Virus genome (UHGV): UHGV-0140649
DNA: 11,552 bases
Strand: one strand, 5' to 3'
Source: a virus
Shown: in pieces, positions 11,004 through 11,168 of the stretch
Numbering within the stretch: the first letter of the stretch is position 1
Layout: each line of letters opens with the position of its first letter
Program-made: the position numbers and the translations under genes
The notes under the pieces: model-generated
Databases searched by the model: none
Seen by the model: the letters and a program-made list of their open reading frames with translations, nothing else
What the model was told of the DNA's origin: nothing

Positions 11004-11168
11004 AATAACCAAAGTGAACTTTGGGGTGTGGTGAAGGGTTCATGGACGGGAATATGTCGCACGTAAAGCGGCGAGGCCTGCGGGACTATTGCCGAATTGA
11101 AGTAGGCCGAAACAGGTCGAAATGGGTCTCCCACCTACCACACCACCAAAGTTCATCAGGAGGTCTAT

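What the first reader, a model, noticed from the sequence alone, without database searches (positions are those of the whole stretch)
11014..11168. Long-range 19-bp duplex in the N leader ending at the N ribosome-binding site
Positions 11014-11033 (GTGAACTTTGGGGTGTGGTG) are complementary to 11137-11156 (ACCACACCACCAAAGTTCAT) with one bulge, enclosing about 100 nt; the 3' arm ends about 5 nt before the Shine-Dalgarno AGGAGG of N. This resembles the RNase III-processed structure in the lambda N leader that controls N translation, and suggests post-transcriptional control of N here.
Basis: seen in the sequence. Interest (0 to 1): 0.4.

Follow-up and report, generated by a model that had tools for sequence, protein, structure and literature searches.

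The report
Conserved RNase III-type hairpin before N
The long-range RNA duplex just upstream of the phage antiterminator gene N is real and matches the hairpin that RNase III cuts in phage lambda's N leader to control N synthesis, so it is a new example of a known control element, with an unexpectedly swappable structured interior.

Summary
The duplex is real. Positions 11014-11032 pair with 11137-11156: 18 Watson-Crick pairs plus one G-U, with one bulged A at 11145, enclosing 104 nt. It appears in the minimum-energy and centroid folds, with pair probabilities of 0.95 or more for all pairs except the terminal G-U (0.86). No helix this long occurred in 1000 shuffles.

It lies on the pL transcript between nutL boxB (10989-11003) and the N ribosome-binding site (11158-11163). 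Its arms are nearly identical to the helix in the same position of lambda's N leader (CUUUGGGGUGUG / CACACCACCAAAG, same bulged A). The same layout precedes phi80 N, P22 gene 24 and the 933W/HK97/H-19B-type N genes.

Across 32 distinct arm haplotypes, 96.7% of cells pair and 12 of 20 pairs change on both sides. RNase III cleavage and its effect on N remain untested here.

New observations:
- The enclosed interior is an exchangeable structured module, with at least 12 types, one of which scores as tRNA-like.
- A conserved local hairpin competes for the 5' arm.
- The 5' arm resembles boxC of the ribosomal RNA leader-trailer helix.

Verdict: a new member of a known kind, of moderate interest.

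The parts
10892..10920 (+). pL promoter-like site (TTGCCA, 17 nt, TAAAGT)
   Evidence: Consensus scan, 9 of 12 matches. It lies downstream of the terminator of the upstream moron gene (10672-10689) and upstream of the conserved transcript start.
10927..10941 (+). Inferred 5' end of the pL transcript (AUCAGCAGGACGCAU)
   Evidence: The first 14 nt are identical to the start of lambda's pL RNA. In P22 the A of ATCAGCAGGACGC is annotated as the 5' nt of the early left RNA. Inference by homology.
10969..10984 (+). nutL spacer dyad GAUUCGAAUAUGAAUC
   Evidence: Hairpin in both the MFE and the centroid. It is identical in the H-19B leader. That H-19B-type nut sites have a spacer dyad is from memory of Neely & Friedman 2000, not checked here.
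10989..11003 (+). nutL boxB (GCGCUGACAAAGCGC), the binding hairpin for N
   Evidence: Hairpin in both the MFE and the centroid. It is identical to the P22 sequence that lies inside that record's annotated nutL.
11009..11024 (+). Local alternative hairpin CCAAAG-UGAA-CUUUGG, which competes with the base of the long helix for CUUUGG
   Evidence: -6.4 kcal/mol. It is predicted in the nascent RNA before the 3' arm is made and in a presumed 5' cleavage product. It is conserved in 200 of the 202 IMG/VR leaders tabulated. Lambda (CAAAGC/GCUUUG) and P22 (CCAAAC/GUUUGG) have it with different sequences.
11014..11032 (+). 5' arm of the long-range helix. Its distal part, GGGGUGUGGU(G) (11023-11033), is boxC-like.
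   Evidence: rrn boxC is UCUGUGUGGG and sits in the 5' strand of the RNase III leader-trailer helix (PMC10250234).
11033..11136 (+). Interior structured module: a multiloop with four hairpins. It is exchangeable between phages.
   Evidence: RNAalifold consensus of 21 variants, none with an indel; the internal pair at columns 66-101 changes U-A to C-G in 5 sequences. The module is 91-97% identical in phi80, Louie and VT2phi_272, whose flanks are unrelated. No Rfam family matches. It is not coding.
11137..11156 (+). 3' arm of the long-range helix, with bulged A11145 followed by the invariant CCAAAG
   Evidence: CCAAAG is invariant in all 32 arm haplotypes, and the bulge is always A or G.
11158..11163 (+). 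Shine-Dalgarno AGGAGG of N
   Evidence: Read from the sequence. It lies outside the helix and is only partly and weakly paired: unpaired probability is 1.0 for A11158 and 0.2-0.3 for G11159-60.
11169..11552 (+). Antitermination gene N (127 aa, 933W/HK97 type)
   Evidence: ORF list. Pfam PF25694 N_peptide, 57.5 bits. Annotated as N in matching phages.

Best explanation
This is the window's copy of the lambdoid N-leader hairpin that E. coli RNase III cleaves in phage lambda.

Proposed sequence of events on the pL transcript:
1. nutL (boxB at 10989-11003) is transcribed first.
2. The GU-rich, boxC-like 5' arm follows and at first folds into a small local hairpin (11009-11024).
3. About 120 nt later the 3' arm emerges and displaces that hairpin. 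A 19-bp helix with one bulged A forms and encloses a structured 104-nt module.
4. The helix places nutL 10 nt from its 5' end and the N Shine-Dalgarno sequence 1 nt from its 3' end. N and the Nus factors, held at nutL on the elongating RNA polymerase, are therefore next to the N ribosome-binding site and can repress N translation. The base of the helix also lies within the region a 30S subunit would cover.
5. RNase III cuts both strands of the helix. This separates nutL from the N message, removes the helix from the ribosome-binding site, and so raises N synthesis in proportion to cellular RNase III activity.
6. The 5' product can refold its local hairpin at its new 3' end.

Shown here: the structure, its position, its homology to lambda, and its conservation with covariation.

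Inferred: RNase III cleavage, the effect on N translation, and the role of the local hairpin.
For: Structure.

Homology to lambda's helix, with the same bulge and the same place in the leader. Phage Louie shows the arms are interchangeable with lambda's.

The same architecture precedes four unrelated N genes: lambda N, phi80 N, P22 gene 24 and the 933W/HK97/H-19B type.

Covariation. In 32 distinct arm haplotypes, 96.7% of cells pair, 12 of 20 pairs change on both sides, 0 of 500 shuffles reach the observed values, and slid controls pair at 35-43%. Every module type folds with the basal helix in its own MFE.

The Shine-Dalgarno sequence is outside the helix. This fits a tethering or proximity mechanism better than simple occlusion.

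Literature:
- RNase III positively regulates lambda N mRNA (PMC9032294).
- rnc70 is dominant for regulation of N mRNA (PMC8708148).
- N plus Nus factors at NutL repress N translation across a highly structured leader (PMC5725501).
- In rrn operons, boxC lies in the 5' strand of the RNase III leader-trailer helix and is proposed to be held at the RNA exit channel until its partner emerges (PMC10250234).
Against: - No cleavage or expression data exist for this phage. The primary lambda papers (Steege 1987, Kameyama 1991, Wilson 1997 and 2002) could not be read here, so lambda's exact cut positions are from memory only.
- In VT2phi_272/PA2-type phages the same module and arms lie downstream of a nut-like site with no N gene after them; IsrK, C4 RNA and a Rha-family (antirepressor-like) gene follow instead. 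Control of N translation therefore cannot be the element's only role.
- The strong sequence conservation of CUUUGG/CCAAAG and of the interior module is more than helix maintenance requires.
- H-19B-type N is reported, from memory, to need fewer Nus factors. Nus-dependent repression may therefore differ here.
Confidence: 0.72

Rival explanations
1. The helix is mainly a frame for excising the interior. RNase III (or RNase P for tRNA-like versions) releases the enclosed roughly 105-120-nt structured module as a discrete stable RNA with a function of its own, such as a decoy, a tRNA mimic or a regulatory RNA. Any effect on N translation is secondary.
For: - The window-type interior is 91-97% identical in phages whose nutL and N are unrelated.
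- It has no indel in 23 variants and carries an internal compensatory pair.
- It persists where no N follows.
- One alternative module in the same slot scores 39.6 bits against Rfam tRNA, above the gathering score of 29. Another has a T-arm plus CACCA.
- In all types the 3' strand of the upper helix is followed by a purine plus CCA, and in most types a hairpin abuts it.
Against: - At least 12 unrelated interiors of 58-216 nt occupy the slot. One phage (L141) has only an 11-nt loop there, so no particular interior is required.
- No Rfam family matches the window's module and ARAGORN finds no tRNA.
- No expression data are available.
- The purine-plus-CCA pattern could simply be part of the conserved helix.
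Confidence: 0.18
2. Simple occlusion. The helix and neighbouring pairings hide the N ribosome-binding site, and cleavage or melting opens it, with no involvement of nutL or N.
For: - The 3' arm ends 1 nt from the Shine-Dalgarno sequence and covers positions -32 to -13 relative to the AUG, inside a 30S footprint.
- Weak extra pairs form between C11009-10 and G11159-60.
- This was the original proposal for lambda (Kameyama 1991, from memory).
Against: - The Shine-Dalgarno bases are largely unpaired in the ensemble: A11158 1.0, A11161 0.96, G11162 0.67.
- In lambda and phi80 the helix ends about 9 nt and 45 nt, respectively, before the Shine-Dalgarno sequence, so occlusion is not a conserved feature.
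- Repression of lambda N is described as needing N and Nus factors at NutL (PMC5725501).
Confidence: 0.08
3. The conserved arms are only DNA-level recombination linkers at mosaic boundaries, or the repeat is a chance inverted repeat with no RNA function.
For: Module boundaries coincide with the arms. Louie equals lambda's flanks plus the window's interior. The core CUUUGG/CCAAAG is invariant in sequence.
Against: - The variable upper helix is complementary in every one of about 10 different sequence versions. DNA linkers do not require this.
- 0 of 1000 shuffles give such a helix.
- The helix is dominant in every fold.
Confidence: 0.02

Closest known systems
RNase III-sensitive hairpin of the phage lambda N leader (between NUTL and the N ribosome-binding site)
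   Same: - It occupies the same position on the pL transcript.
- The arm core is the same: CUUUGGGGUGUG / CACACCACCAAAG.
- It has the same single bulged A and a similar enclosed length (104 nt here, about 106 nt in lambda).
- A local alternative hairpin lies upstream of the 5' arm in both.
   Different: - The interior is an unrelated module.
- The helix ends 1 nt from the Shine-Dalgarno sequence rather than about 9 nt.
- nutL is the P22/H-19B type and N belongs to a different sequence family.
- Cleavage and regulation are demonstrated for lambda only.
Leader-trailer helix of E. coli rRNA operons (boxB-boxA-boxC followed by the RNase III stem flanking 16S rRNA)
   Same: - A nut-like antitermination site is followed by a GU-rich boxC that forms the 5' strand of a long-range helix, which in the rrn operons is the primary RNase III target.
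- The helix encloses a structured RNA.
- The 5' arm shares GUGUGG with rrn boxC, UCUGUGUGGG.
- The proposed delivery of boxC to its partner by the antitermination complex would apply here too (PMC10250234; PMC8632103).
   Different: - The rrn helix encloses 1.5 kb of rRNA rather than about 100 nt.
- It serves ribosome assembly rather than translational control of a downstream gene.
- The order of boxA and boxB is reversed.
- This is an analogy in mechanism, not membership.
Other RNase III-activated phage messages (lambda cIII; T7 R1.1 early mRNA sites)
   Same: RNase III binds or cleaves a 5' or intercistronic helix and thereby increases expression (PMC5371410; PMC8708148).
   Different: Those are local hairpins that act through ribosome-binding-site access or mRNA stability. 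Here a long-range helix links an antitermination site to a ribosome-binding site.
tRNA and tRNA-like elements (Rfam RF00005)
   Same: - In three related IMG/VR loci (L147, L186, L199) the module in this slot has an acceptor stem, a D arm and a T arm, scoring 39.6 bits.
- In all versions the 3' strand of the upper helix is followed by a purine plus CCA.
   Different: - The window's own module gives no tRNA hit at E <= 10, and ARAGORN finds no tRNA in the related leaders scanned, including two with the same interior (L001, L003) and the tRNA-like ones.
- The tRNA-like version has 70 nt in place of the anticodon arm.
- The CCA is base-paired in the basal helix.

Membership tests
Lambdoid N-leader RNase III hairpin (lambda type) | Located on the pL transcript between nutL boxB and the ribosome-binding site of N | tested here: met
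   boxB is at 10989-11003, the helix at 11014-11156, the Shine-Dalgarno sequence at 11158-11163 and the N AUG at 11169. N is confirmed by Pfam PF25694.
Lambdoid N-leader RNase III hairpin (lambda type) | A long-range double helix of about two turns enclosing roughly 100 nt, dominant in the fold | tested here: met
   19 bp plus one bulge, enclosing a 104-nt loop. Present in the MFE and the centroid, with pair probabilities of 0.95 or more for all but the terminal G-U pair (0.86). 0 of 1000 shuffles reach it.
Lambdoid N-leader RNase III hairpin (lambda type) | Sequence homology of the arms to lambda's helix, including the bulged A | tested here: met
   Window: CUUUGGGGUGUGGUG / ACCACACC-A-CCAAAG. 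Lambda: CUUUGGGGUGUGUG / CACACACC-A-CCAAAG.
Lambdoid N-leader RNase III hairpin (lambda type) | The helix is maintained by compensatory change in related leaders | tested here: met
   96.7% of cells pair, 12 of 20 pairs change on both sides, and the covariation score is 0.417 against 0.158 in shuffles (0 of 500 reach it).
Lambdoid N-leader RNase III hairpin (lambda type) | Cleaved by E. coli RNase III on both strands | not testable with these tools
   No cleavage data or RNA-end data are accessible. Helix length and regularity are compatible with a substrate. Lambda's cut positions are known to me only from memory.
Lambdoid N-leader RNase III hairpin (lambda type) | RNase III raises N translation by relieving repression that depends on nutL and N | not testable with these tools
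   Established for lambda (PMC9032294; PMC5725501). Only the geometry could be checked here: nutL lies 10 nt from one end of the helix and the Shine-Dalgarno sequence 1 nt from the other.
tRNA / tRNA-like element (RF00005) | Cloverleaf with D and T arms recognised by the covariance model or by ARAGORN | tested here: not met
   The window's module gives no tRNA hit at E <= 10, and ARAGORN finds nothing in the related leaders scanned, including two with the same interior. Only the alternative module in L147, L186 and L199 meets it (39.6 bits).
Protein-coding small ORF (65 aa, 11021-11218) | Reading frame kept open, with an excess of synonymous change among relatives | tested here: not met
   In-frame stops occur in 5 of 21 variants (a sixth, in Louie, lies at the edge of the aligned segment, past the module). 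Counts are 27 synonymous, 51 non-synonymous and 7 stop changes in that frame.

The most novel reading that the evidence does not exclude
The N-leader helix may be a conserved cassette holder: a boxC-based leader-trailer helix like the one in rRNA operons. It would frame interchangeable structured RNAs, at least one of them tRNA-like and all followed by a purine plus CCA. RNase III, or RNase P, would excise these from the early leftward transcript as discrete RNAs with functions of their own. On this reading the family descends from, or mimics, a tRNA gene placed between nutL and N.
Probability: 0.15. Interest if true: 0.65.

Novelty: new member of a known kind. Interest (0 to 1): 0.38.

Why it matters
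N is the first gene expressed after infection or induction, and its level gates all delayed-early expression. In Stx-type phages like this one, that includes the path to toxin production.

In lambda, RNase III cleavage of this hairpin couples N synthesis to host physiology. Showing that the same helix, down to the bulged A, precedes four unrelated N genes makes that control a general property of lambdoid phages rather than a lambda peculiarity. The element is present, unannotated, in about 9% of complete E. coli genomes.

It also gives concrete positions for rnc-dependent processing experiments in Shiga-toxin phages.

The exchangeable, highly conserved interiors, including a tRNA-like one, and the parallel with rrn boxC and the leader-trailer helix are not explained by the lambda model. 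They are directly testable.

Tried and rejected
- **Rfam.** No family matches the window leader, lambda's leader or the other module types. The only hits are chance-level.
- **tRNA or tmRNA in the related leaders.** ARAGORN finds none, including in two leaders with the window's interior; it was not run on the window itself, which rests on the Rfam result above.
- **Small protein.** The 65-aa ORF over the module (11021-11218) is rejected: 5 of 21 variants have in-frame stops and non-synonymous changes far outnumber synonymous ones.
- **phi80 M3 RNA (an RNase P substrate) as the module.** Rejected. The phi80 record places M3 RNA at 36229-36288 as the oop homologue.
- **Known EHEC prophage sRNAs (AgvB, AsxR, Pas).** The sRNAs whose location could be read lie in the Q/pR' region (PasD, the convergent moron-site sRNAs) or near other conserved genes (PasA/PasC); neither paper mentions nutL, an N leader or RNase III.
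- **Statistics that proved uninformative.** The half-versus-half duplexfold energy does not separate real from shuffled (181 of 1000 shuffles as good). A helix count that allows G-U pairs is weak (1 of 500). The Watson-Crick count replaced them.
- **Primary lambda papers and the Court 2013 review.** None are held in the library. Full-text searches for 'N leader' found nothing.
- **Scan of one genome per species.** It returned only three loci, so IMG/VR and the phage collection supplied the diversity instead.

Full report
**Setting**

The window is the immunity region of a mosaic lambdoid, Stx-phage-like genome. No single phage record covers more than 56% of it. Its layout is:
- cro at 8501-8734 (minus strand) and cI at 8848-9552 (plus strand).
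- An orphan 341-aa gene at 9633-10658, followed by a terminator at 10672-10689.
- A pL-like promoter at 10892-10920.
- An N gene at 11169-11552.

The transcript start is inferred at A10927. The next 14 nt, AUCAGCAGGACGCA, are identical to the start of lambda's pL RNA, and P22's record annotates the same A as the 5' nucleotide of the early left RNA. nutL boxB, GCGCUGACAAAGCGC, lies at 10989-11003.

Yes. Positions 11014-11024 pair with 11146-11156, A11145 is bulged, and 11025-11032 pair with 11137-11144. That is 19 bp (18 Watson-Crick and one G-U) around a 104-nt interior.

- The helix is in both the minimum-energy and the centroid structures of 10927-11200. The fold z-score is -3.43.
- Its pairs have probabilities of 0.95-1.0, apart from the terminal G-U at 0.86. 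The isolated arms give -30.8 kcal/mol.
- A Watson-Crick helix of 18 bp with one bulge never arose in 1000 dinucleotide shuffles of the leader (mean 8.7, maximum 14).

The 3' arm stops 1 nt, not about 5 nt, before the Shine-Dalgarno AGGAGG (11158-11163).

**What is it?**

Lambda's own N leader, read from NC_001416, has GGCUUUGGGGUGUGUG ... CACACACC-A-CCAAAGC at the equivalent place. The core sequence and the single bulged A are the same. Both helices lie between boxB and the N ribosome-binding site, and the enclosed length is similar. The window's duplex is therefore homologous to the lambda N-leader hairpin.

Phage Louie makes the point directly. It carries lambda's nutL and lambda's N, with the window's interior between the shared arms.

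The same architecture also precedes:
- phi80 N: AAUGUUAUGG|GAUGUGGUG ... ACCACAUC|G|CCAAAGCAUU.
- P22 gene 24: UGGUUUGG|ACUGGCG ... CGCCAGU|A|CCAAAGCCA.
- The 933W/HK97/H-19B-type N genes of E. coli and Salmonella phages.

Rfam has no family for any of these leaders.

**Covariation**

I collected leaders in two ways. One used the N protein. The other used the 3' flank CCAAAGTTCAYCAGGAGG, which does not constrain the upper helix. Both searched IMG/VR. Named phages were added.

The arms fall into 32 distinct haplotypes. The basal 11 bp are nearly constant. The upper 7-11 bp occur in about ten different sequences, each complementary to its own partner:
- GGUGUGGUG
- GGUGAAUGCAG
- GAUGCGAUG
- GAUUGGAUG
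- GAUGUGGUG
- GGUGUGAUGG
- GAAAGCG
- GAUGUGGC
- GGUGUGUG
- ACUGGCG

These are listed. On the gap-free arm alignment A1:
- 96.7% of cells form standard pairs.
- 12 of 20 pairs show changes on both sides.
- The covariation score is 0.417, against 0.158 in shuffles (0 of 500 reach it).
- Sliding the partner strand drops pairing to 35-43%.

Each module type also forms the basal helix in its own minimum-energy fold. A caveat applies: many of these changes arrived by module exchange rather than point mutation, and the sequences are related. The slid control and the number of independent helix versions nevertheless make structure the only reasonable reading.

**Mechanism**

For lambda, the accessible literature states that:
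- RNase III positively regulates N mRNA (PMC9032294).
- The cleavage-defective rnc70 allele is dominant in that regulation (PMC8708148).
- N with Nus factors bound at NutL represses N translation across a highly structured leader of about 200 nt (PMC5725501, citing Wilson 1997 and 2002).

From memory of those primary papers, which were not readable here, cleavage of the hairpin separates NUTL from the ribosome-binding site and so abolishes the autorepression. This ties N synthesis to RNase III level.

The window's geometry fits this model, even more tightly than lambda's. When the helix forms, boxB is 10 nt from its 5' end and the Shine-Dalgarno sequence is 1 nt from its 3' end. The Shine-Dalgarno bases are outside the helix and mostly unpaired. 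Tethering of the nutL complex next to the ribosome-binding site, plus some steric hindrance from a helix lying at -32 to -13, is therefore more plausible than plain sequestration. I put about 0.7 on this whole chain. The structural and homology parts are near certain. Cleavage and its regulatory consequence are inferred.

1. *A competing local hairpin.* A second copy of CCAAAG lies at 11009-11014. With a UGAA loop it pairs with CUUUGG (11019-11024) to form a -6.4 kcal/mol hairpin that competes with the base of the long helix. This hairpin is predicted in the nascent RNA before the 3' arm exists, and again in a presumed 5' cleavage product. It is present in 200 of the 202 IMG/VR leaders tabulated. 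Lambda (CAAAGC/GCUUUG) and P22 (CCAAAC/GUUUGG) have it with different sequences. I infer that it is a folding intermediate and, after cleavage, a 3'-end cap for the nutL fragment. This is untested.

2. *A boxC-like 5' arm.* The 5' arm, GGGGUGUGGUG, resembles boxC. In rRNA operons, boxC (UCUGUGUGGG) sits in the 5' strand of the leader-trailer helix that flanks 16S rRNA, the primary RNase III target. It is proposed to be held at the RNA exit channel by the antitermination complex until its partner emerges (PMC10250234; PMC8632103). The phage element looks like a miniature of that arrangement.

3. *An exchangeable interior.* At least 12 unrelated interiors of 58-216 nt occupy the slot, and one phage has a bare 11-nt loop. 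The window's type behaves as follows:
   - It is 91-97% identical in phi80, Louie and VT2phi_272, whose flanks are unrelated.
   - It has no indel in 23 variants.
   - It folds into a four-hairpin multiloop with one internal compensatory pair.
   - It is not coding.

4. *tRNA-like features.* One alternative module (L147, L186, L199) scores 39.6 bits on Rfam's tRNA model, above the gathering score of 29. It has acceptor, D and T arms, with 70 nt in place of the anticodon arm. Another module has a T arm plus CACCA. In every version the 3' strand of the upper helix is followed by a purine plus CCA.

These points do not change the verdict on the finding. They leave room for a more interesting reading, in which the helix frames RNAs that are excised for purposes of their own.

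**A counter-example to an N-only role**

In VT2phi_272/PA2-type Stx phages, the same arms and module follow a nut-like site. What comes next is IsrK (58.7 bits), a C4 antisense RNA (77.1 bits) and a Rha-family (antirepressor-like) gene, not N. Either the element is a relic there, or it serves a more general purpose in processing or insulating the RNA downstream of nutL.

**Novelty and score**

The element belongs to a known and experimentally characterised kind, the lambda N-leader RNase III hairpin. This instance and its pan-lambdoid conservation are a new member, not a new mechanism. It is unannotated in 510 of 5426 complete E. coli genomes.

Interest is moderate (0.38). A specialist would not be surprised by the helix itself. 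The swappable conserved interiors, the tRNA-like cargo and the conserved competing hairpin are worth a bench test.

Noticed in passing
L147 1552-1678 (minus strand); also L186 and L199: In three IMG/VR proviruses the slot between the conserved N-leader arms holds a tRNA-like element. It scores 39.6 bits on Rfam RF00005 (gathering score 29, E = 5.7e-7) and has intact acceptor, D and T arms, with 70 nt in place of the anticodon arm. ARAGORN does not call it. No named phage in the phage collection carries it.
   Followed up: partly
window 11145-11148, and the same position in all related leaders: The 3' strand of the variable upper helix is always followed by a bulged purine and then CCA (the start of the invariant CCAAAG), as at a tRNA 3' end. 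In most module types a hairpin directly abuts that strand, like a T arm. This may be coincidence or a trace of tRNA ancestry or mimicry.
   Followed up: partly
window 11009-11024: A second copy of CCAAAG just upstream of the 5' arm forms a local hairpin (CCAAAG-UGAA-CUUUGG, -6.4 kcal/mol) that competes with the base of the long helix. Lambda and P22 have equivalents with different sequences.
   Followed up: partly
L002 2689-2764 and 2789-2876 (phage VT2phi_272): In PA2-type Stx2 phages the same leader module is followed not by N but by IsrK (RF01394, 58.7 bits), a C4 antisense RNA (RF01695, 77.1 bits) and a Rha-family (antirepressor-like) gene. This is a P1-like c4/ant-type cassette sitting in the N position.
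   Followed up: partly
window 9633-10658 (+): A 341-aa ORF lies between cI and pL, in the slot that rexAB occupies in lambda, and has its own terminator at 10672-10689. It has no Pfam or PADLOC match. PhiR12_1 annotates it as 'T2SS GspM containing protein'. It is a candidate lysogen-expressed exclusion or defence gene of unknown type.
   Followed up: partly
window 3814-3959: This is the only other 18-bp Watson-Crick helix with one bulge in the whole window: CGCCAAAAUACUCGAGGCC / GGCCUCAGUAUUUUGGCG on the minus strand, about 110 nt apart. It lies inside the 355-aa gene that contains a P63C domain. Conservation was not checked.
   Followed up: no
L141 6380-6630 (IMG/VR provirus): This is a minimal version of the element: a perfect 11-bp hairpin, UUUGGUGGUGG/CCACCACCAAA, with an 11-nt loop and no bulge. 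A 39-codon ORF with a hydrophobic product is inserted between nutL and the hairpin.
   Followed up: no
L007 (Xanthomonas pisi contig NZ_JPLE01000293.1, 251 bp): A 251-bp contig in a Xanthomonas assembly carries an exact 31-nt match to the enterobacterial phage module. This is most likely contamination of that assembly.
   Followed up: no
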